From a phage, in NCBI GenBank assembly GCA_019566135.1, contig GCA_019566135.1_3044.1: 64,000 nt of DNA; one strand, 5' to 3'. Below are positions 12,303-48,819 of this stretch, piece by piece. The notes beneath the pieces are model-generated. The model searched no databases. It saw only the letters and a program-made list of their open reading frames with translations, and was not told where the DNA came from. Both the position numbers and the translations under genes were made by a program. How positions within the stretch are numbered: position 1 is the stretch's first letter; the number at the start of each line of letters is the position of its first letter.

Positions 12303-15300
12303 ATGGCCGAGATTAAAAGAAAGTTCAGAGCAGAAGATGGTCTGGACGCAGGTGGTGATAAAATAATCAACGTAGCTTTAGCTGATCGTACCGTAGGAAC
12401 TGACGGTGTTAACGTTGATTACTTAATTCAAGAAAACACAGTTCAACAATATGATCCAACTCGTGGATATTTAAAAGATTTTGTAATCATTTATGATAAC
12501 CGCTTTTGGGCTGCTATAAATGATATTCCAAAACCAGCAGGAGCTTTTAATAGCGGACGCTGGAGAGCATTACGTACAGATGCTAACTGGATTACGGTTT
12601 CATCTGGTTCATATCAATTAAAATCTGGTGAAGCAATTTCGGTTAACACTGCAGCTGGAAATGACATTACGTTTACTTTACCGTCTTCTCCAATTGATGG
12701 TGATACTATCATTCTCCAAGATATTGGAGGAAAACCTGGAGTTAACCAAGTTTTAATTGTAGCTCCAGTGCAAAGTATTGTAAACTTTAGAGGTGAACAG
12801 GTACGTTCAGTACTAATGACTCATCCAAAGTCACAGCTAGTTTTAATTTTTAGTAATCGTCTGTGGCAAATGTATGTAGCTGATTATAGTAGAGAAGCTG
12901 TAGTTGTAACACCAGCGAATACTTATCAAGCGCAATCTAATGATTTTATCGTGCGTAGATTTACTTCTGCTGCACCAATTAATGTTAAACTTCCAAGATT
13001 TGCTAATCATGGCGATATTATTAATTTCGTCGATTTAGATAAACTGAATCCACTTTATCATACAATTGTTACTACATACGATGAAACGACTTCAGTACAA
13101 GAAGTTGGAACTCATTCCATTGAAGGCCGTACATCGATTGACGGTTTCTTGATGTTTGATGATAATGAGAAATTGTGGAGATTGTTTGACGGGGATAGTA
13201 AAGCACGTTTACGCATTATAACGACTAATTCTAATATTCGTCCAAACGAAGAAGTTATGGTATTTGGTGCGAATAACGGAACAACTCAGACAATTGAACT
13301 TCAGCTTCCTACTGATATTTCTGTTGGTGATACTGTTAAAATTTCCATGAATTACATGAGAAAAGGACAAACAGTTAAAATCAAAGCTGCAGGTGAAGAT
13401 AAAATTGCTTCTTCAGTTCAATTGCTGCAATTCCCAAAACGTTCAGAATATCCGCCTGAGGCTGAATGGGTTACAGTTCAAGAATTAGTTTTTAACGGTG
13501 AAACTAATTATGTTCCAGTTTTACAGCTTGCTTATATAGAAGATTCTGATGGAAAATACTGGGTTGTACAGCAAAACGTTCCAACTGTAGAAAGAGTAGA
13601 CTCTTTAAATGATTCTACTAGAGCAAGATTAGGCGTAATTGCTTTAGCTACACAGGCTCAAGCTAACGTCGATTTAGAAAATTCTCCACAAAAAGAATTA
13701 GCAATTACTCCAGAAACATTAGCTAACCGTACTGCTACAGAAACTCGTAGAGGTATCGCAAGAATAGCAACTACTGCTCAAGTGAATCAGAACACCACAT
13801 TCTCTTTTGCTGATGATATTATCATTACTCCTAAAAAGCTGAATGAAAGAACTGCTACAGAAACTCGTAGAGGTGTTGCTGAAATTGCTACGCAACAGGA
13901 AACTAATGCAGGTACTGATGATACTACAATCATCACTCCTAAAAAGCTTCAAGCTCGACAAGGTTCTGAATCATTATCAGGTATTGTAACCTTTGTATCT
14001 ACCGCGGGAGCTACTCCAGCTTCTAGTCGTGAATTAAATGGTACAAACGTTTATAATAAAAACACTAATAATTTAGTTGTTTCGCCTAAAGCTCTAGATC
14101 AGTATAAAGCTACTCCAACGCAACAAGGTGCAGTAATTTTAGCAGTTGAAAGTGAAGTAATTGCTGGACAGAGCCAAGAAGGATGGGCAAATGCGGTTGT
14201 AACGCCAGAAACGTTACATAAAAAGACATCAACTGATGCAAGAATTGGTTTAATTGAAATTGCTACGCAAAGTGAAGTTAATACAGGAACTGATTATACT
14301 CGTGCAGTCACTCCTAAAACTTTAAATGACCGTAAAGCAACTGAAAGTTTAAGTGGTATAGCTGAAATTGCTACGCAAGTTGAATTCGACGCAGGCGTCG
14401 ACGATACTCGTATCTCTACGCCATTAAAAATTAAAACTAGATTTAATAGTACTGATCGTACTTCTGTTGTTGCTCTATCTGGATTAGTTGAATCAGGAAC
14501 TCTCTGGGACCATTATACCCTTAATATTCTTGAAGCAAATGAGACACAGCGTGGTACACTTCGTGTGGCTACACAAGTTGAAGCTGCTGCAGGAACATTA
14601 GATAATGTTTTAATAACTCCTAAAAAGCTTTTAGGTACTAAATCTACCGAATCGCAGGAAGGTGTTATTAAAGTTGCAACTCAGTCTGAAACTGTGACTG
14701 GAACGTCAGCAAATACTGCTGTATCTCCAAAAAATTTAAAATGGATTGTGCAGAGTGAACCTACTTGGGCAGCTACTACTGCGATAAGAGGCTTTGTTAA
14801 AACTTCATCTGGTTCAATTACATTCGTTGGTAATGATACAGCTGGTTCTACGCAGGACTTAGAGCTATACGAGAAAAACAGCTATGCAGTATCACCATAT
14901 GAATTAAACCGTGTATTAGCAAATTATTTGCCATTAAAAGCAAAAGCTGCTGATACAAATTTATTGGATGGTCTAGATTCATCTCAATTCATTCGTAGGG
15001 ATATTGCACAGACGGTTAATGGTTCACTAACCTTAACTCAACAAACGAATCTGAGTGCCCCTCTTGTATCATCTAGTACTGCTACGTTTGGCGGATCAGT
15101 TTCGGCAAACAGCACATTAACTATTTCTAATACTGGAACGGCAACTCGTCTGATTTTTGAGAAAGGACCTCAAACTGGAACTAACCCAGTACAGACGATG
15201 ACTATCAGAGTTTGGGGAAATCAGTTTGGTGGCGGTTCAGATACAACACGTTCTACTGTATTTGAAGTTGGTGATGAAACGTCTAATCACTTTTATTCTC

Positions 15301-16172
15301 AACGCAATAAAGCTGGGAATATAACGTTTAGTATCAATGGTACTGTAATGCCAATAAATGTTAATGCTTCGGGTTCTTTGAATGCGAACGGCGTTGCAAC
15401 ATTTGGTAGTTCAGTTACAGCCAATGGCGAATTCATCAGCAAGTCTGCAAATGCTTTCAGAGCAATTAGTGGTGATTACGGATTCTTTATTCGCAATGAT
15501 GCTGCTAATACCTATTTTATGCTCACTGCATCCGGTGATCAGACTGGCGGATTTAATGGATTACGTCCTTTGTCTATTAATAATGCATCTGGCCAAGTAA
15601 CGATTGGTGAAAGCTTAATCATTGCCAAAGGTGCTACTATAAATTCTGGTGGTTTAACTGTTAACTCGAGAATTCGTTCTCAAGGTACTAAAACATCTGA
15701 CTTATATACCCGTGCGCCAACATCTGATACTGTAGGATTCTGGTCAATTGATATTAACGATTCAGCCACTTATAACCAGTTCCCGGGTTATTTTAAAATG
15801 GTTGAAAAAACTAATGAAGTGACTGGACTTCCGTACTTAGAACGTGGCGAAGAAGTTAAATCTCCTGGTACACTGACACAGTTTGGTAACACACTTGATT
15901 CGCTTTACCAAGATTGGATTACTTATCCAACGACACCAGAAGCGCGTACCACTCGCTGGACACGTACATGGCAGAAAACCAAAAACTCTTGGTCAAGTTT
16001 TGTTCAGGTATTTGACGGAGGTAACCCTCCTCAACCATCTGATATCGGTGCTTTACCATCTGATAATGCTACAATGGGGAATCTTACTATTCGTGATTTC
16101 TTACGAATTGGTAATGTTCGCATTATTCCTGACCCAGTGAATAAAACTGTTAAATTTGAATGGGTTGAATAA
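12303..16172 (+). CDS. 34: Long tail fibre proximal subunit gp34
   Basis: 1289 aa (same as T4 gp34); repeated ITPKKL...ATE(T/S)...G(I/V)A(E/R)IAT motifs. Confidence 0.93.
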   Translation: MAEIKRKFRAEDGLDAGGDKIINVALADRTVGTDGVNVDYLIQENTVQQYDPTRGYLKDFVIIYDNRFWAAINDIPKPAGAFNSGRWRALRTDANWITVSSGSYQLKSGEAISVNTAAGNDITFTLPSSPIDGDTIILQDIGGKPGVNQVLIVAPVQSIVNFRGEQVRSVLMTHPKSQLVLIFSNRLWQMYVADYSREAVVVTPANTYQAQSNDFIVRRFTSAAPINVKLPRFANHGDIINFVDLDKLNPLYHTIVTTYDETTSVQEVGTHSIEGRTSIDGFLMFDDNEKLWRLFDGDSKARLRIITTNSNIRPNEEVMVFGANNGTTQTIELQLPTDISVGDTVKISMNYMRKGQTVKIKAAGEDKIASSVQLLQFPKRSEYPPEAEWVTVQELVFNGETNYVPVLQLAYIEDSDGKYWVVQQNVPTVERVDSLNDSTRARLGVIALATQAQANVDLENSPQKELAITPETLANRTATETRRGIARIATTAQVNQNTTFSFADDIIITPKKLNERTATETRRGVAEIATQQETNAGTDDTTIITPKKLQARQGSESLSGIVTFVSTAGATPASSRELNGTNVYNKNTNNLVVSPKALDQYKATPTQQGAVILAVESEVIAGQSQEGWANAVVTPETLHKKTSTDARIGLIEIATQSEVNTGTDYTRAVTPKTLNDRKATESLSGIAEIATQVEFDAGVDDTRISTPLKIKTRFNSTDRTSVVALSGLVESGTLWDHYTLNILEANETQRGTLRVATQVEAAAGTLDNVLITPKKLLGTKSTESQEGVIKVATQSETVTGTSANTAVSPKNLKWIVQSEPTWAATTAIRGFVKTSSGSITFVGNDTAGSTQDLELYEKNSYAVSPYELNRVLANYLPLKAKAADTNLLDGLDSSQFIRRDIAQTVNGSLTLTQQTNLSAPLVSSSTATFGGSVSANSTLTISNTGTATRLIFEKGPQTGTNPVQTMTIRVWGNQFGGGSDTTRSTVFEVGDETSNHFYSQRNKAGNITFSINGTVMPINVNASGSLNANGVATFGSSVTANGEFISKSANAFRAISGDYGFFIRNDAANTYFMLTASGDQTGGFNGLRPLSINNASGQVTIGESLIIAKGATINSGGLTVNSRIRSQGTKTSDLYTRAPTSDTVGFWSIDINDSATYNQFPGYFKMVEKTNEVTGLPYLERGEEVKSPGTLTQFGNTLDSLYQDWITYPTTPEARTTRWTRTWQKTKNSWSSFVQVFDGGNPPQPSDIGALPSDNATMGNLTIRDFLRIGNVRIIPDPVNKTVKFEWVE

Positions 16173-16180
16173 GAGGTATT

Positions 16181-17296
16181 ATGGAAAAATTTATGGCAGA
16201 GTTTGGACAAGGATATGTCCAAACGCCATTTTTATCGGAAAGCAATTCAGTAAGATATAAAATAAGCATAGCGGGTTCTTGCCCGCTTTCTACAGCAGGA
16301 CCATACGTTAAATTTCAGGATAATCCTGTAGGAAGTCAAACATTTAGCGCAGGCCTTCATTTAAGAGTTTTTGACCCTTCCACCGGAGCATTAGTTGATA
16401 GTAAGTCATATGCTTTTTCTACTTCAAATGATACTACATCTGCTGCCTTTGTTAGTTTCATGAATTCTTTTTCAAGCAATAGACTTGTTGCTATATTAAC
16501 TAACGGAAAGGTTAATTTTCCTCCTGAAGTAGTATCTTGGTTAAGAACAGCAGGAACGTCTGCTTTTCCATCTGACTCTGTATTGTCAAGATTCGACGTA
16601 TCATATGCTGCTTTTTATACTTCTTCTAAAAGAGCTATTGCATTAGAGCATGTTAAACTGAGTAATAGAAAAAGCACAGATGATTATCAAACTATTTTAG
16701 ATGTTGTATTTGACAGTTTAGAAGACGTCGGAGCTACCGGGTTTCCAAGAAGAACGTATGAAAGCGTTGAGCAATTTATGTCAGCGGTTGGTGGAACTAA
16801 TAACGAAATTGCCCGTCTACCTACAGCATCTGCAATAAGTAAACTTTCTGACTATAATTTAATTCCTGGAGATGTTCTTTATCTTAAAGCACAACTATAT
16901 GCTGACGCTGATTTATTAGCGTTGGGAACTACTAATATTTCAATTCGTTTTTATAATGCGTCGAATGGATATATTTCCTCGACACAAGCTGAGTTTACTG
17001 GACAGGCTGGGTCTTGGGAATTAAAGGAAGACTATGTAGTTGTTCCAGAAAATGCAGTTGGATTTACGATATATGCACAGAGAACTGCTCAAGCGGGACA
17101 AGGCGGTATGCGAAATTTAAGCTTTTCTGAAGTATCAAGAAATGGCGGAATTTCAAAACCTGCTGAATTTGGCGTCAATGGTATTCGTGTTAATTATATT
17201 TGTGAATCTGCTTCACCTCCGGATATAATGGTACTTCCTACGCAAGCATCGTCTAAAACTGGTAAAGTGTTTGGGCAAGAATTTAGAGAAGTATAA
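16181..17296 (+). CDS. 35: Long tail fibre hinge protein gp35
   Basis: 371 aa; immediately after gene 34. Confidence 0.88.
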   Translation: MEKFMAEFGQGYVQTPFLSESNSVRYKISIAGSCPLSTAGPYVKFQDNPVGSQTFSAGLHLRVFDPSTGALVDSKSYAFSTSNDTTSAAFVSFMNSFSSNRLVAILTNGKVNFPPEVVSWLRTAGTSAFPSDSVLSRFDVSYAAFYTSSKRAIALEHVKLSNRKSTDDYQTILDVVFDSLEDVGATGFPRRTYESVEQFMSAVGGTNNEIARLPTASAISKLSDYNLIPGDVLYLKAQLYADADLLALGTTNISIRFYNASNGYISSTQAEFTGQAGSWELKEDYVVVPENAVGFTIYAQRTAQAGQGGMRNLSFSEVSRNGGISKPAEFGVNGIRVNYICESASPPDIMVLPTQASSKTGKVFGQEFREV

Positions 17297-45413: not shown

Positions 45414-45884
45414 CTAGCGATAAAAACCAAAGTGACGATTAGCTTCAATGATCTTTCTTTCTTCTTCGGACATTCTCCAGCGTAGTCCAACATCAAAATG
45501 AGCCCAGACCATCCTAACAAATGCATTTATATCTTTAATATCTTCAATAATGAATGTTTTACTTTTAGAAGGTTGACTCGCTAATTTAACTTTATCGTCT
45601 TCAAACATGTCAAAAAGACCATATTCATGAGCTCTTTTATAGCCTTTAATAGTTAAAGCTTCAGAAGAAGAAAATGGTGAATCTGTATTCTGCAAAATAT
45701 CTTCAGTATGCTTTATAATTAGAATAACATTTTCTGGATATTTTCTTTCTTTTATATCTTTAATTAAAATATCCGGATTTTCTGCTAAAGGAATAATTAA
45801 CGAGCATTTTTTATCAAGTGTATTTACTGATTTACCTTCTTTAGACATAAATTCTATTGAATATAATTTTGCTACTTCAATCAT
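45414..45884 (-). CDS. Hypothetical protein (156 aa)
   Basis: ORF. Confidence 0.5.
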   Translation of the reverse strand: MIEVAKLYSIEFMSKEGKSVNTLDKKCSLIIPLAENPDILIKDIKERKYPENVILIIKHTEDILQNTDSPFSSSEALTIKGYKRAHEYGLFDMFEDDKVKLASQPSKSKTFIIEDIKDINAFVRMVWAHFDVGLRWRMSEEERKIIEANRHFGFYR

Positions 45885-46041: not shown

Positions 46042-46241
46042 GATTTATCACCATAGATGTCTCTCATCAATTTAAGCGCTGAGCGTTCTAATTTCTTTTC
46101 TTTCTCAGCACTAATCATTGATTTCATCCATTCTTCTGACTCGTTCTGCATTTCTTTATTTGCCTGTTCAACCCAACCATCATCAATATACATTGAGTTT
46201 GGTCTATTGAACCATTCAAGCATTTTCTTCAGAACTTTCAT
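46038..46241 (-). CDS. Hypothetical protein (67 aa)
   Basis: ORF. Confidence 0.45.
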
Positions 46242-46701
46242 TTGTTTTACCTAAAACGATAGTATGGACAGCGTCAAATTCATGAATTTTTAGCAAATTA
46301 GGATTTAAATTATTCCATAAAGAGGTAATAAAATATGATAGCGCACTTTCGTCCGTAATTATAAATTTATTTCCTTTATCTATTTTCCAATCATATATTG
46401 AATCGTATGAATAGAAGGATAACGGTTTATTATTATAGTATGCTTCAGCAACATCAATATAGTTAGATTTAGTAAATGCTTGAATTGCCATAAATGGAGA
46501 ATTTTGTACAGTTTCAATAATTCCGATCTTTTTAAGTTTTATTTCAACATCTTCTGGAACTGGCATTGAAATAAAATCTTCTACTAGATACATGTCATTG
46601 TCATATCTTTTATCAATCATTACTGCTACTGTAATTGGAACATCCTTGACAAACGCCATACTAATACTATTGATAGACATTTCAAACAAAATCGCTTCCA
46701 T
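46216..46701 (-). CDS. Hypothetical protein (161 aa from ATG 46701)
   Basis: GAGGA SD before ATG 46701. Confidence 0.5.
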
Positions 46702-46709
46702 AATTTTCC

Positions 46710-47051
46710 TCAATCACAAGATGTAGATGAACAACTAGAATCACAAGAACTTCCACATGAATCGCCCGTCCATACATGAACAGGAACATTGGTGTCATAT
46801 GAATCAGAACTAGACTGTGTATTCTGTGCATTAGATGATGTAGTAGGTACTGACCAGCGCCAAGGATTTTTATAATATTCTTGGGCTTCTTCATAAGTCA
46901 TAGTAACTGCTTCTACTGTTCCATCTCCCATATAAACATACTCAACTACAGTTAAAGGAAGGTAGTCATTTGAAATAGGAACTACACCTTCTCCCGGAGT
47001 TGTAGAGAAAAAATCTGTAAAGAAATTTTTAAACCAATTAAATATAAACAT
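46710..47051 (-). CDS. Hypothetical protein with hydrophobic N-terminus and Cys/Ser-rich C-terminal tail (113 aa)
   Basis: C-terminus ...[20 protein letters not shown]; N-terminus [15 protein letters not shown]. Confidence 0.5.
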
Positions 47052-47257
47052 TACAAAAAGCCTCTTTTGAATTCGACTTGCTTATCGCCATAATCATATC
47101 GAATCTCTGCATTAAATTCGACAGAACCATCTGCGTACATCATAAATGAATGCACAACAACTTCTGTGGACCATGGCTGCAGTTCATATTTCTTCATTAC
47201 ATGCCGTGAAATGATAATATCTAAATCTTCATTTGGTTTAATCCAACGATTTAACAT
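47051..47257 (-). CDS. Hypothetical protein (68 aa)
   Basis: GAGGAG SD; first gene after the early promoter at 47284-47313. Confidence 0.5.
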   Translation of the reverse strand: MLNRWIKPNEDLDIIISRHVMKKYELQPWSTEVVVHSFMMYADGSVEFNAEIRYDYGDKQVEFKRGFL

Positions 47258-47283: not shown

Positions 47284-47313
47284 ATTATACCACACTCATT
47301 TTGATATGTAAAC
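47284..47313 (-). promoter_or_regulatory. Early promoter (-35 GTTTAC 47313..47308, extended -10 TGtgGTATAAT)
   Basis: Near-consensus TATAAT with 18-nt spacer. Confidence 0.65.
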
Positions 47314-47320
47314 TGCAAAA

Positions 47321-47349
47321 ACGAAAAAAGGAACCCCGAAGGATTCCTT
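47321..47349 (-). terminator. Rho-independent terminator after soc
   Basis: AAGGAAUCC-UUCG-GGGUUCCUU followed by a U-tract. Confidence 0.7.
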
Positions 47350-47354
47350 AAATT

Positions 47355-47612
47355 TTAACCACCAATACCTGGAGTTGGCGTAACAGTCCAAAGACCTTCA
47401 TTAGCAGTGATCCATTCAGTACGCTGATTTTCTTCATATACTGTAGAATATGCTGCTTTTTCAGAAGGGAATGTCTGATAATGAGCACCAGAAATTTTGT
47501 GAACATCAGAATAAAGAGGGAAAGCTACAGAAATTTCTTTACCCTGAATTGTACCACCATCAACTGCTTGGTCAAATGTTTTAATATTAACATAACCGCG
47601 AGTACTAGCCAT
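47355..47612 (-). CDS. soc: Small outer capsid protein Soc
   Basis: 85 aa; MASTRGYVNIKTF...EISVAFPLYSDVHKISGAHYQTFPSEKAAYSTVYEENQRTEW matches T4 Soc. Confidence 0.9.
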   Translation of the reverse strand: MASTRGYVNIKTFDQAVDGGTIQGKEISVAFPLYSDVHKISGAHYQTFPSEKAAYSTVYEENQRTEWITANEGLWTVTPTPGIGG

Positions 47613-47628: not shown

Positions 47629-47838
47629 TTAAATTACATGATTATTTATAATAAATTCTCGCGGAACGTTAAAATATCCGATTTTAGTTAATATAACAAC
47701 ATCACCGTTAATAATTACCGGAGAATAATCTTCTGGAGTGTTAAATTTCCAATGGGATCTAATATTATATCCATCAGAACCAAATGCTCGAGTAGCCGGT
47801 CTCCCGGCTTTTTGCCACGCGTAGAAATCAAATTTCAT
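47629..47838 (-). CDS. Hypothetical protein (69 aa; soc.1 position)
   Basis: ORF. Confidence 0.5.
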   Translation of the reverse strand: MKFDFYAWQKAGRPATRAFGSDGYNIRSHWKFNTPEDYSPVIINGDVVILTKIGYFNVPREFIINNHVI

Positions 47839-48029
47839 TTTGAATGCTCTATAATTAATTTTAAAGCTTCTTCACTGACAAAAATTTCGTCAGGACCTTC
47901 TATAACTTCAACCATACGAAGTTGATTAGTTAAGAGCTCACATACGAGCTCCTTGTTATAATCTTTAAATAGCTGGTCAATACGTTTCTTATGGGCTTTC
48001 TTAAGCTGACGCTTATTTAAACGAGCCAT
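47835..48029 (-). CDS. Hypothetical protein (64 aa; soc.2 position)
   Basis: ORF. Confidence 0.5.
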   Translation of the reverse strand: MARLNKRQLKKAHKKRIDQLFKDYNKELVCELLTNQLRMVEVIEGPDEIFVSEEALKLIIEHSK

Positions 48030-48547
48030 TAATAACCTCGGTCTTGACGAGCGAAGTTTTCAGCATTTTTCAGGTAATAAAGTTTAAAGATTTCTTCAGC
48101 CGACATTCCAAGAGCAATAAATTTATTCATGAAAAAGTGAAATTGGTCAATCAGTTCAAATTTAATTTCAAGCTGATCTTCAGGAGATAAGTCTTGAATT
48201 TTCTTGGATTGCATTTCAGAATAACGTTTCTTCCAAGGTTTCCATACAGCAGAAGCTTCTTTTTCACCATTACTCATACCACCAAGAGAAGTATATAGCT
48301 CGCGAGTTTCGTCTGCGATATAATCGTCTTGGTTTCGCAGCCAAGCAAGAACTTCTCCTGCAGTTTCAAGTGAATCAGGATGACGATTTGTTTCTGGTTT
48401 ATCATTAGCCAAACGAATCTGTAAATGCCGCTGCATGTCAAGCATAACCTGCAATGGGTCAATACTGTGCATAATATACTCAGCATATGCACGATTTGCT
48501 TTATCAACACCTTCGATCAAATGAGCACATTCATTAAAGTGAGCCAT
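48029..48547 (-). CDS. 56: dCTPase/dUTPase gp56 (MazG-like), 172 aa from ATG 48547
   Basis: MAHFNECAHLIEGVDKANRAYAEY...; AAAGGA SD; track's longer ORF is an upstream read-through. Confidence 0.85.
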   Translation of the reverse strand: MAHFNECAHLIEGVDKANRAYAEYIMHSIDPLQVMLDMQRHLQIRLANDKPETNRHPDSLETAGEVLAWLRNQDDYIADETRELYTSLGGMSNGEKEASAVWKPWKKRYSEMQSKKIQDLSPEDQLEIKFELIDQFHFFMNKFIALGMSAEEIFKLYYLKNAENFARQDRGY

Positions 48548-48618
48548 TATTTTTCCTTTCAATTCATGGGTTAGTAGATTAATTATACAATAAATATATA
48601 AAGCAATAAGGAGGACAT

Positions 48619-48819
48619 ATGGTACAAAAATTAATGGCACTTGTTAATGCCATAAAAGGTAATAAAAAACGTATAGCTTTTACTATTTCTGCTATGGTAG
48701 GAATTTTACTCTGGAACTTTATTTTATCACCAATTGCAATTGCGCATGGTGTTAATATTCCAGTAGTTACTCTTGATACATTTGTAGATTTAGCATTTGC
48801 TTTAGTTGGGTTGATTTAA
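48619..48819 (+). CDS. Small membrane protein on the opposite strand (66 aa)
   Basis: Strong SD AAGGAGG 5 nt before ATG 48619; two hydrophobic segments; converges on gene 61, overlapping its stop by 4 nt. Confidence 0.55.
   Translation: MVQKLMALVNAIKGNKKRIAFTISAMVGILLWNFILSPIAIAHGVNIPVVTLDTFVDLAFALVGLI

What the first reader, a model, noticed from the sequence alone, without database searches (positions are those of the whole stretch)
46710..47051. Protein with hydrophobic N-terminus and a Cys/Ser-rich C-terminal tail
The 113-aa ORF begins [15 protein letters not shown] (possible signal or membrane anchor), has a Ser/Thr/Gln-rich linker and ends ...[17 protein letters not shown]. Five cysteines spaced as C-x3-C-x3-C-x5-C could bind metal or form disulfides; the low-complexity linker suggests a secreted or surface-exposed tail. 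I do not recognise a homolog.
Basis: seen in the sequence. Interest (0 to 1): 0.45.

Follow-up and report, generated by a model that had tools for sequence, protein, structure and literature searches.

The report
Phage T4 mrh.1 gene, function unknown
The ORF is a real, already catalogued early gene of T4-like phages (mrh.1, Pfam DUF7206) that encodes a small, mostly disordered cytoplasmic protein whose serine-rich tail always ends in Cys-Asp; nobody knows what it does, and the phage does not need it in the laboratory.

Summary
The 113-aa ORF at 46710-47051 (-) is real. It is the ortholog of phage T4 mrh.1: 109/113 residues identical, same soc-mrh.2-mrh.1-mrh order. It matches Pfam DUF7206 (104 bits, cut-off 25.6) and phrog_2031. 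The identical protein is already public (phages wV7, AR1).

There are four cysteines, not five, spaced C-x3-C-x3-C-x4-C. The N-terminus is a short amphipathic helix, not a signal peptide or transmembrane anchor (best 19-residue hydropathy 0.84).

The family contains 127 full-length members from T-even-type phages of enterobacteria. Only two of the four cysteines are family-wide. Every member ends in Cys-Asp (two in Cys-Asn). 98/127 have an upstream S-C-D-S. Cys-Cys spacing varies from 4 to 10. Also invariant is a Y-x-G-D-G beta-hairpin.

AlphaFold gives helix, hairpin, helix, then a disordered tail (pLDDT about 58). Nothing similar turned up in the PDB.

An early promoter sits just upstream. 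In published T4 screens the transcript is early, the gene is non-essential (31/31 transposon sites hit) and it is marginally 'Semi-Fit' under CRISPRi.

My best guess, which is inferred and not shown: a cytoplasmic, possibly membrane-docked accessory protein whose paired Cys-Asp tail chelates a metal or engages a host partner.

This is an ordinary, already known gene with an unexplained conserved tail.

The parts
46710..47051 (-). mrh.1 coding sequence (113 codons plus TGA stop at 46710-46712)
   Evidence: ORF list. Pfam DUF7206 at 104.2 bits against a cut-off of 25.6, covering profile positions 1-107 of 107. phrog_2031 at E=1e-33. 109/113 identical to T4 NP_049642.1 Mrh.1.
47007..47051 (-). 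Residues 1-15, [15 protein letters not shown]: N-terminal amphipathic helix (possible membrane- or partner-docking element)
   Evidence: AF2 helix 3-15. Hydrophobic moment 0.44-0.71, above shuffles, and the same holds for 94% of 53 distinct family N-termini. Not a TM segment: KD maximum 0.84.
46974..46997 (-). Residues 19-26, PGEGVVPI: conserved proline-flanked segment after the helix
   Evidence: P19 is nearly invariant and the consensus is PGEGxVPI in the 64-sequence alignment A2.
46896..46952 (-). Residues 34-52: beta-hairpin carrying the invariant Y40-x-G42-D43-G44 turn (EYVYMGDG); the only confidently predicted structure
   Evidence: Invariant columns Y40, G42, D43, G44. AF2 strands 34-40 and 46-52 with pLDDT 74-83. 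The same hairpin appears in the Mosigvirus-type homolog P0029 with pLDDT about 86.
46854..46895 (-). Residues 53-66: short helix following the hairpin. The module from here to about residue 94 is specific to Tequatrovirus; other genera carry a different charged helix plus an IVVAAAVSSW segment.
   Evidence: AF2 helices 53-61 and 63-66. Alignments A1 and A2.
46767..46853 (-). Residues 67-95: Ser/Thr/Asn/Gln-rich disordered linker. This is the most variable part and the site of indels and of a 51-aa mosaic insertion in some relatives.
   Evidence: pLDDT below 50 for residues 69-98. Three of the four differences from T4 lie here (V68T, A75T, T95A; the fourth is N9S). Mosaic P0003.
46713..46766 (-). 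Residues 96-113, [18 protein letters not shown]: Ser/Asp/Cys tail. C103-D104-S105 and the C-terminal C112-D113 are the family-wide elements; C99 and C107 are Tequatrovirus-specific additions.
   Evidence: C112 is invariant; C103, D104, S105 and D113 are at least 90% conserved. All 127 full-length members end C-[D/N]. Synonymous codon changes occur with the residues unchanged.
47061..47066 (-). Shine-Dalgarno AAGAGG, GAGG nine nt upstream of the mrh.1 ATG. The ATG overlaps the TAA stop of mrh.2 (TAATG), so the two genes are translationally coupled.
   Evidence: Read directly from the sequence.
47051..47257 (-). mrh.2 (68 aa), the upstream gene of the same transcription unit
   Evidence: phrog_1873 at E=1.5e-36. 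Same position as T4 mrh.2.
47284..47312 (-). Sigma-70 (T4 early-type) promoter TTTACA-17-TATAAT with an extended -10 TG. It drives mrh.2, mrh.1 and mrh.
   Evidence: 11 of 12 consensus matches, the best site in the scanned region. T4 mrh.1 RNA is classed 'early' (PMC9697503 supplement).
47328..47349 (-). Intrinsic terminator after soc, separating soc from the mrh.2-mrh.1-mrh unit
   Evidence: 9-bp stem, 4-nt loop, T-run.
46216..46701 (-). mrh (modulator of rpoH), the downstream gene. It starts 8 nt after the mrh.1 stop.
   Evidence: Pfam T4_MRH at E=4.6e-41. Annotated start in relatives.

Best explanation
SHOWN:
- The ORF is the ortholog of bacteriophage T4 gene mrh.1 (Pfam DUF7206, PHROG 2031) in a Tequatrovirus genome.
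- It is a genuine gene, the second in a three-gene unit (mrh.2-mrh.1-mrh) behind a strong early promoter. It has its own Shine-Dalgarno sequence, and its start overlaps the mrh.2 stop.
- The product is small, acidic (net charge -11) and has no export signal, so it should stay in the cytoplasm.
- Its predicted architecture is modular: an N-terminal amphipathic helix, a conserved PGEGVVPI segment, a beta-hairpin with an invariant Y-x-G-D-G turn, a genus-specific middle module, and a disordered Ser/Asp/Gly-rich tail.
- Family-wide, that tail carries an S-C-D-S element and always ends in Cys-Asp-COOH.
- In T4 the gene is dispensable on E. coli K-12.

INFERRED (mechanism, untested): it is an accessory host-takeover protein.
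- The N-terminal helix resembles the WLKNLF/FLKRLF-type membrane-targeting helices of MinD and FtsA. I infer that it docks the protein on the inner face of the membrane or on a partner.
- The hairpin would provide partner binding or oligomerisation.
- The flexible tail would present two Cys-Asp pairs that act together as a soft-metal or Fe-S chelating site, possibly shared between subunits. Alternatively they could insert into the metal site of a host target.
- Tequatroviruses doubled the number of thiols to four.
For: Identity:
- Pfam and PHROG hits.
- 96% identity and synteny with T4.
- The exact sequence is public in phages wV7 and AR1.
- 502 phage records carry it.

Real gene:
- The frame is conserved in at least 127 full-length homologs across T-even-type genera infecting Escherichia, Salmonella, Serratia, Edwardsiella, Enterobacter and Cronobacter.
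- The tail residues are kept through synonymous changes and both Ser codon families.
- The position after gp56/soc is kept even where mrh or mrh.2 are absent.

Expression:
- Early promoter and terminator layout, and the SD sequence.
- T4 mrh.1 RNA is 'early' (PMC9697503 supplement).

Architecture:
- Two AF2 models give helix, hairpin, helix(es), disordered tail.
- Invariant Y40, G42, D43, G44 and C112.
- N-terminal amphipathicity above shuffles (median z = 1.68), and no TM-grade window anywhere in the family.

Tail as the functional element:
- 127/127 members end C-[D/N], and 98/127 have SCDS.
- A mosaic relative (P0003) with a 51-aa insertion still keeps the tail intact.

Accessory role:
- HIDEN-SEQ hit 31/31 TA sites, 'Non-essential' (bioRxiv 10.1101/2025.11.20.689424 supplement).
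- CRISPRi-ART scored it 'Semi-Fit', 0.79, p = 0.069, while its neighbours were 'Not Fit' (PMC11879866 supplement).
Against: - There is no direct evidence for metal binding, membrane association or any partner.
- Most family members have only two Cys, and their spacing varies from 4 to 10. This does not fit a fixed chelate geometry and differs from known CxxC or Cys4 sites.
- The models have low confidence overall (pLDDT 58-60, pTM about 0.25).
- The protein was not detected in a T4 proteome time course. That is weak evidence: essential gp56 was also missing, and the K/R positions in the sequence mean trypsin would cut Mrh.1 into pieces of 8, 53, 4 and 48 residues.
- The Semi-Fit call is marginal (p = 0.069) and could reflect polar effects.
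- The resemblance to the MinD/FtsA helix is recalled from memory and was not tested here.
Confidence: 0.4

Rival explanations
1. The tail is a short linear motif or pseudosubstrate, not a metal site. A host protein (for example a protease or chaperone such as FtsH, Lon or ClpXP, or another enzyme) recognises the free C-terminal ...S-C-D-COOH together with the upstream SCDS. Mrh.1 would then act as a decoy, inhibitor or adaptor during early takeover.
For: - The motif always sits at the extreme C-terminus: 127/127 members end C-[D/N] with nothing beyond it. This is typical of C-terminus-recognising domains.
- The protein is mostly disordered and modular, like other small phage inhibitors.
- Its neighbours mrh and srh are annotated as acting on the sigma-32 heat-shock circuit. 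From general knowledge, sigma-32 turnover is by membrane-bound FtsH.
- CRISPRi gives a mild fitness effect.
Against: No partner is known and none can be searched for with these tools. Gene neighbourhood in T4 early regions is a weak guide to function, and mrh is absent from several genera that keep mrh.1. Conserved cysteines are unusual in pure recognition motifs.
Confidence: 0.25
2. The two conserved cysteines form a redox-active pair (a reversible disulfide) that interacts with host or phage thioredoxin/glutaredoxin systems or senses redox state.
For: There are two invariant Cys in a flexible loop of 4-10 residues, and the location is cytoplasmic. From general knowledge, T4 encodes its own thioredoxin and glutaredoxin-like proteins.
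Against: There is no CxxC geometry and no folded redox domain. The Asp after each Cys and the strict C-terminal position are not explained by this reading. Nothing tested here bears on it directly.
Confidence: 0.08
3. Mrh.1 is a RiPP-like precursor. The conserved N-terminal part would be the leader, and the Ser/Cys-rich C-terminus would be a core that is post-translationally modified (dehydration with thioether formation, azoline formation or similar) by an unrecognised phage or host enzyme.
For: The layout is leader-like (conserved N-terminal region, variable linker, Ser/Thr/Cys-rich C-terminus). There is a weak compositional match of residues 95-109 to the core region of the FxLD lanthipeptide precursor model TIGR04363 (E = 0.034, 14.1 bits).
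Against: - The match is far below the curated cut-off (30 bits).
- None of the three other family members tested (P0029, P0084, P0072) hit the model.
- No synthetase, cyclodehydratase or radical-SAM maturase lies in the neighbourhood; the neighbours are mrh.2, mrh, soc and small ORFs.
- There is no export or immunity gene and no cleavage motif.
- Most members have only two Cys.
Confidence: 0.03
4. One reading: a secreted or surface-exposed protein with an N-terminal signal or anchor and a disulfide or metal-binding tail outside the cytoplasm.
For: The N-terminus is rich in Phe, Trp and Ile, and the tail is polar and Cys-rich.
Against: There is no hydrophobic core of TM or signal-peptide grade: the best KD-19 value is 0.84, and the family maximum is 1.09. 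Polar or charged residues recur every 3-4 positions, giving an amphipathic helix of only about 7-13 residues followed by Pro. There is no cleavage-site-like motif.
Confidence: 0.03
5. A spurious or decaying ORF, with the low-complexity tail arising from DNA composition or repeat slippage.
For: The tail is low-complexity. A few database entries are truncated or frameshifted (P0005, P0006, P0024, L007).
Against: There is no tandem DNA repeat. The frame and motifs are conserved across genera at 30-60% identity. Synonymous variation leaves the residues unchanged. The truncated entries are rare: the 90% cluster has 515 full-length-type members.
Confidence: 0.01

Closest known systems
Bacteriophage T4 Mrh.1 (gene T4p027, NP_049642.1, UniProt P20706; 'uncharacterized 12.6 kDa protein in mrh-soc intergenic region'); Pfam DUF7206 (PF23836); PHROG 2031
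   Same: 109/113 residues are identical. Length, gene order (soc, mrh.2, mrh.1, mrh), strand and early promoter context are the same, and the profile match is full-length.
   Different: Four substitutions (N9S, V68T, A75T, T95A), none in the hairpin or the Cys tail. The window phage lacks segF and dam in the flanking region.
Mrh.1 homologs of other T-even-type genera (e.g. phage JS98 Mrh.1, Serratia phage PS2 PS2_021, Edwardsiella phage PEi20 gp023, Enterobacter phage homologs)
   Same: N-terminal amphipathic helix, P-G-E-G-x-[11 protein letters not shown] hairpin, Ser/Asp/Gly/Tyr-rich tail with SCDS and a terminal CD.
   Different: They have two Cys instead of four and a shorter N-terminal helix. 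The middle module is different (a charged helix plus IVVAAAVSSW) in place of [17 protein letters not shown] and the S/T/N/Q linker. Phage 235Ecol030PP carries a mosaic of both modules.
Amphipathic membrane-targeting helices of MinD (C-terminal ...KKGFLKRLFGG), FtsA and MreB; a functional analogy only, recalled from general knowledge
   Same: A short terminal helix with a [WF][LI]K[NR][LF]F-type pattern and a comparable hydrophobic moment: 0.4-0.9 for the family against 0.27-0.57 for the E. coli examples computed here.
   Different: There is no homology, and membrane binding of Mrh.1 is untested. In Mrh.1 the helix is N-terminal and is followed by Pro.
Two-cysteine metal-binding loops near the C-terminus of MerR-family sensors (CueR C-x7-C, MerR C-x8-C); a functional analogy only, from general knowledge
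   Same: Two thiols separated by a short loop close to the C-terminus could give low-coordination binding of a soft metal.
   Different: Those loops sit on a folded dimeric scaffold with fixed spacing. In Mrh.1 the spacing varies from 4 to 10, each Cys is followed by Asp, and the region is predicted to be disordered.
Lanthipeptide / RiPP precursor peptides (e.g. NCBIfam TIGR04363, FxLD family)
   Same: Conserved N-terminal part, variable linker, and a Ser/Thr/Cys-rich C-terminus.
   Different: The score is sub-threshold (14.1 against 30 bits), no modifying enzyme, transporter or immunity genes are present, and Cys content is low in most members.

Membership tests
Pfam DUF7206 (PF23836) | Whole-protein score above the curated gathering threshold, with full-length profile coverage | tested here: met
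   104.2 bits against a cut-off of 25.6, E = 7e-30, protein residues 3-113 on profile positions 1-107 of 107. Nearly all homologs found, including all full-length ones, carry the precomputed PF23836 hit.
T4 mrh.1 orthologous group (PHROG 2031) | High sequence identity to T4 Mrh.1 | tested here: met
   109/113 identical, no gaps. phrog_2031 at E = 1e-33.
T4 mrh.1 orthologous group (PHROG 2031) | Conserved genomic position: minus-strand early cluster, soc - mrh.2 - mrh.1 - mrh - ... - modB - modA | tested here: met
   Window ORFs and their Pfam/PHROG hits compared with the T4 annotation and phage 303Ecol101PP.
   Maximum KD-19 mean is 0.84 in this protein and 1.09 in 127 homologs. The N-terminus has N5, K8, N9, T12 and D13 spaced as in an amphipathic helix. 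No dedicated predictor (SignalP, TMHMM) was available.
Amphipathic membrane-targeting helix (MinD/FtsA/MreB type) | Terminal helix with a high hydrophobic moment, conserved as a property across homologs | tested here: met
   muH is 0.44-0.71 here. 94% of 53 distinct family N-termini exceed their shuffles (median z = 1.68). AF2 helices 3-15 and 3-9.
Amphipathic membrane-targeting helix (MinD/FtsA/MreB type) | Demonstrated binding to the membrane | not testable with these tools
   Needs GFP-fusion localisation or liposome co-sedimentation.
Classical Cys-based metal sites (zinc ribbon/finger CxxC...CxxC, metallothionein, Fe-S CxxCxxC) | Fixed, conserved Cys spacing with at least three or four ligands per site | tested here: not met
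   The window protein has C-x3-C-x3-C-x4-C. Family members mostly have two Cys, with spacing 4-10 (mode 6 and 8). No Pfam metal-binding domain was hit.
Classical Cys-based metal sites (zinc ribbon/finger CxxC...CxxC, metallothionein, Fe-S CxxCxxC) | Metal actually bound | not testable with these tools
   Needs ICP-MS or spectroscopy on purified protein.
Lanthipeptide/RiPP precursor (NCBIfam TIGR04363 FxLD family as the proxy hit) | Score above the curated cut-off | tested here: not met
   14.1 bits against a cut-off of 30 (E = 0.034). The three other family members tested gave no hit.
Lanthipeptide/RiPP precursor (NCBIfam TIGR04363 FxLD family as the proxy hit) | Cognate modifying enzyme encoded nearby | tested here: not met
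   The neighbours are mrh.2, mrh, soc, small hypothetical ORFs, modB, modA, gp56 and gp61. None is a synthetase, cyclodehydratase or radical-SAM enzyme.
Known anti-phage defence or counter-defence catalogues (PADLOC) | Profile match | tested here: not met
   No PADLOC hit at E<=1 for four family members. PADLOC models defence proteins, not anti-defence proteins, so this says little.

The most novel reading that the evidence does not exclude
The Cys-Asp-terminated Ser-rich tail, invariant in 127 homologs, may be a new type of phage effector module. One version is a membrane-tethered, thiol-based 'warhead' that chelates a metal or Fe-S cluster or plugs the metal centre of a host enzyme (for example the FtsH protease of the sigma-32 circuit, next to whose modulators the gene lies). 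The other version is a tail that is itself covalently modified after translation. Either would give T4 mrh.1 a mechanism with no described precedent among phage host-takeover proteins.
Probability: 0.12. Interest if true: 0.6.

Novelty: already known. Interest (0 to 1): 0.28.

Why it matters
Roughly half of the genes of T4, the best-studied phage, still have no function, and mrh.1 is one of them. The gene itself is not new. This analysis adds a family-wide description that turns a 'hypothetical protein' into testable point mutants. That description has three elements:
- the invariant Y-x-G-D-G hairpin;
- the N-terminal amphipathic helix;
- a tail that always ends Cys-Asp with an upstream S-C-D-S.

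Testable mutants follow directly: C103S, C112S, delta-CD and delta-1-15. mrh.1 is one of only five T4 genes of wholly unknown function flagged Semi-Fit by CRISPRi-ART. If the tail proves to bind a metal or a host enzyme, that would explain why this small early gene is retained across T-even-type phages of enterobacteria. As a scan finding it is ordinary: a correctly spotted ORF that is already in Pfam.

Tried and rejected
- Structure-based annotation. Two AlphaFold2 runs with a 64-sequence alignment gave pLDDT 58 and 60 and pTM about 0.25. Foldseek against the PDB gave nothing below E = 1.9. I ran no further fold searches because the model is mostly disordered.
- Profile search of PDB sequences with alignment A2. 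The best hits are E = 0.85 (a capsid protein) and Ser-run matches, which are noise.
- NCBIfam. Only the sub-threshold FxLD lanthipeptide hit. I kept this as a low-probability rival.
- PADLOC. No hits.
- Exhaustive phmmer against 1.84 billion representatives. It returned only family members plus two long low-complexity false positives, P0023 and P0027.
- Tandem-repeat origin of the tail. None found.
- Literature. 'mrh.1' and 'DUF7206' return no relevant main-text hits; information came only from supplements. The HIDEN-SEQ text names no mrh.1 phenotype under RexAB, RnlAB, CBASS, DarTG1, DarTG2 or minimal medium, and the one condition row I saw gives log2FC -0.16, p = 0.69.
- Reading mrh.1 as functionally tied to mrh. 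This is weakened because Mosigvirus/Dhakavirus-like loci keep mrh.2 and mrh.1 but lack mrh, and two other genera keep mrh.1 without a detectable mrh.2.

Full report
**1. What is at the coordinates**

Two details of the description are wrong. The tail [18 protein letters not shown] has four cysteines (C99, C103, C107, C112), not five. Their spacing is C-x3-C-x3-C-x4-C. The cluster is not a chance feature. Cysteine makes up 1.1% of residues in the long ORFs of this 35%-GC window, and only about 0.23 fourteen-residue windows with four or more Cys are expected in the whole window. No tandem DNA repeat underlies it.

**2. Identity**

The window is a Tequatrovirus (T4-like) genome. The 1.7 kb around the ORF matches 534 phage records, with the best at 98.9% identity. 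The ORF matches Pfam DUF7206 over the full profile (104.2 bits, cut-off 25.6) and PHROG 2031 (E = 1e-33). It is 109/113 identical to T4 Mrh.1 (T4p027, NP_049642.1), and the four substitutions all lie outside the conserved hairpin and the tail. The exact protein sequence is already public in phages wV7 and AR1, inside a 90%-identity cluster of 515 members.

The neighbours confirm the locus: soc (47355-47612), mrh.2 (47051-47257), mrh (46216-46701), modB, modA, gene 56 and primase gene 61, all on the minus strand. This is a catalogued gene of unknown function.

**3. Is it a real, expressed gene?**

A soc terminator (47349->47328) is followed at once by the best promoter match in the region, TTTACA-17-TATAAT with an extended -10 TG (47312->47284). 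That promoter would drive mrh.2, mrh.1 and mrh. The mrh.1 ATG overlaps the mrh.2 stop (TAATG), and GAGG lies nine nt upstream.

Published T4 data add three points:
- The transcript is classed 'early'. The protein was not detected, but neither was essential gp56, and from the K/R positions in the sequence trypsin would cut Mrh.1 into pieces of 8, 53, 4 and 48 residues (PMC9697503 supplement).
- Transposon sequencing hit 31 of 31 TA sites, giving 'Non-essential' on E. coli K-12 (bioRxiv 10.1101/2025.11.20.689424 supplement). That paper names no mrh.1 phenotype under the five defence systems or the minimal medium it tested.
- CRISPRi-ART scored mrh.1 'Semi-Fit' (0.79, p = 0.069). It is one of five such T4 genes of wholly unknown function, while mrh.2, mrh, srh and soc were 'Not Fit' (PMC11879866 supplement).

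**4. The family**

A single-sequence search finds only Tequatrovirus copies. IMG/VR loci and a profile search reach about 120 clusters. The named ones are all T-even-type phages of Escherichia, Shigella, Salmonella, Serratia, Edwardsiella, Enterobacter and Cronobacter.

In a 64-sequence alignment the invariant columns are Y40, G42, D43, G44 and C112. Nearly invariant are K8, F15, P19, E37, E47, V49, S102, C103, D104, S105 and D113.

Among 127 full-length members:
- Every one ends in Cys-Asp (two in Cys-Asn).
- 98 have the upstream cysteine in S-C-D-S.
- The spacing between the last two cysteines ranges from 4 to 10.
- The last 25 residues are 42% Ser, 14% Asp, 13% Gly, 9% Cys and 7% Tyr, with no Lys or Arg.

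Most members have only these two cysteines. C99 and C107 of the window protein are Tequatrovirus-specific additions.

The tail is maintained through synonymous changes (TGT/TGC, GAT/GAC, both Ser codon families) within and between genera. A mosaic relative in phage 235Ecol030PP carries a 51-residue insertion of the other genera's middle module, yet keeps the tail intact.

The gene keeps its place downstream of gene 56/soc even where mrh or mrh.2 are absent. Its function is therefore not obligatorily tied to mrh.

**5. Architecture**

Two AlphaFold2 runs, one on the window protein and one on a Mosigvirus-type homolog, agree on the layout:
- an N-terminal helix (residues 3-15 here);
- a beta-hairpin around the Y-x-G-D-G turn (34-40 and 46-52, pLDDT 74-86), which is the only confident element;
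- one or two helices;
- a disordered C-terminal third.

Overall confidence is low: pLDDT 58-60 and pTM about 0.25.

No hit was significant in any of these searches:
- Foldseek against the PDB (best E = 1.9);
- a profile search of PDB sequences;
- PADLOC.

The N-terminus is not a signal peptide or anchor. The best 19-residue Kyte-Doolittle mean is 0.84 (1.09 anywhere in the family, against the usual 1.6), and polar residues recur every 3-4 positions. It is consistently amphipathic: the hydrophobic moment is 0.4-0.9, and 94% of 53 distinct family N-termini exceed their own shuffles (median z = 1.68). The protein is acidic (net charge -11).

**6. How it most likely works**

Shown: this is an early, non-essential, cytoplasmic, largely disordered modular protein. 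Its selected elements are the N-terminal amphipathic helix, the PGEGVVPI segment, the Y-x-G-D-G hairpin and the SCDS...CD-COOH tail.

Inferred:
- The helix has the [WF][LI]K[NR][LF]F pattern of the MinD/FtsA type of membrane-targeting helix. I am recalling that pattern from general knowledge. It could dock the protein at the inner membrane or on a partner.
- The hairpin could mediate partner binding or oligomerisation.
- The tail presents two Cys-Asp pairs on a flexible Ser/Gly leash. Conserved cysteine pairs in cytoplasmic proteins are most often metal ligands. I therefore favour, at about 0.3-0.4, a soft-metal or Fe-S chelating site, possibly formed between subunits, or insertion into a host metal centre. 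Tequatroviruses doubled the thiols.

The main rival (about 0.25) is a C-terminal recognition motif or pseudosubstrate for a host protein. The strict placement at the very C-terminus supports it.

The RiPP reading rests only on a 14-bit hit to TIGR04363, whose cut-off is 30 bits, and no modifying enzyme lies nearby.

**7. Comparison with known families**

Membership in DUF7206, PHROG 2031 and the T4 mrh.1 orthologous group is met on every test. Membership in signal-peptide/TM proteins, classical Cys-based metal-site families and lanthipeptide precursors was tested and not met. The resemblances to membrane-targeting helices and to two-Cys metal loops of MerR-type sensors are functional analogies only.

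**8. Verdict**

The gene is already known as an uncharacterised family, so its novelty as a scan finding is low. The modest added value is the family-wide definition of the tail (always ...C-D-COOH with an upstream SCDS), the hairpin and the amphipathic helix, which give clear mutants to test.

Interest 0.28.

Noticed in passing
window 47629-48029 and 48619-48819, compared with L015 (T4 13000-17000): Relative to T4, this phage has no segF homing endonuclease between soc and gene 56; two small ORFs of 69 and 64 aa lie there instead. It also has no dam methyltransferase between gene 56 and primase gene 61. Instead there is a 66-aa hydrophobic ORF on the opposite (+) strand, which phage 303Ecol101PP also annotates as hypothetical (L001 4126-4326).
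   Followed up: partly
window 48029-48640 (gene 56) and 46216-46713 (mrh): The mechanical ORF list over-extends both genes to upstream GTG/TTG codons (203 and 165 aa). Annotated relatives start at internal ATGs: dCTPase about 172 aa, and mrh 161 aa at 46216-46701.
   Followed up: partly
GenBank records under hits H1, H3, H7, H8, H10 and phage BW-1: Annotation errors are spreading in T4-like genomes. The small gene modA.4 is labelled 'molybdenum ABC transporter, periplasmic molybdenum-binding protein ModA', evidently from confusion over the gene name. One record calls mrh.1 'prohead assembly scaffold protein'.
   Followed up: no
P0003 (Escherichia phage 235Ecol030PP, 164 aa; cluster of 17 sequences): This is a mosaic mrh.1. 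It has a Tequatrovirus-type N-terminal two-thirds, then a 51-residue block of the Mosigvirus/Dhakavirus-type middle module (MEEIIRQPEKAGNVG...IITATAVSSW), then the Tequatrovirus four-Cys tail. That indicates recombination between genera inside this small gene.
   Followed up: partly
window 45414-45884 (-), 156 aa: This ORF corresponds by position to T4 modA.3 (the 471-nt gene upstream of modA.2/modB in both genomes). Two sources place modA.3 in the same PHROG as mrh (phrog_1234), so the locus may contain two Mrh paralogs. I did not test the window ORF against PHROGs.
   Followed up: no
L007 (IMG/VR UViG_3300006879_000208), P0005, P0006, P0024: A few metagenomic or genomic copies of mrh.1 are frameshifted or truncated after the hairpin. 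Either the gene is occasionally lost or these are sequencing errors in homopolymer-rich DNA.
   Followed up: no
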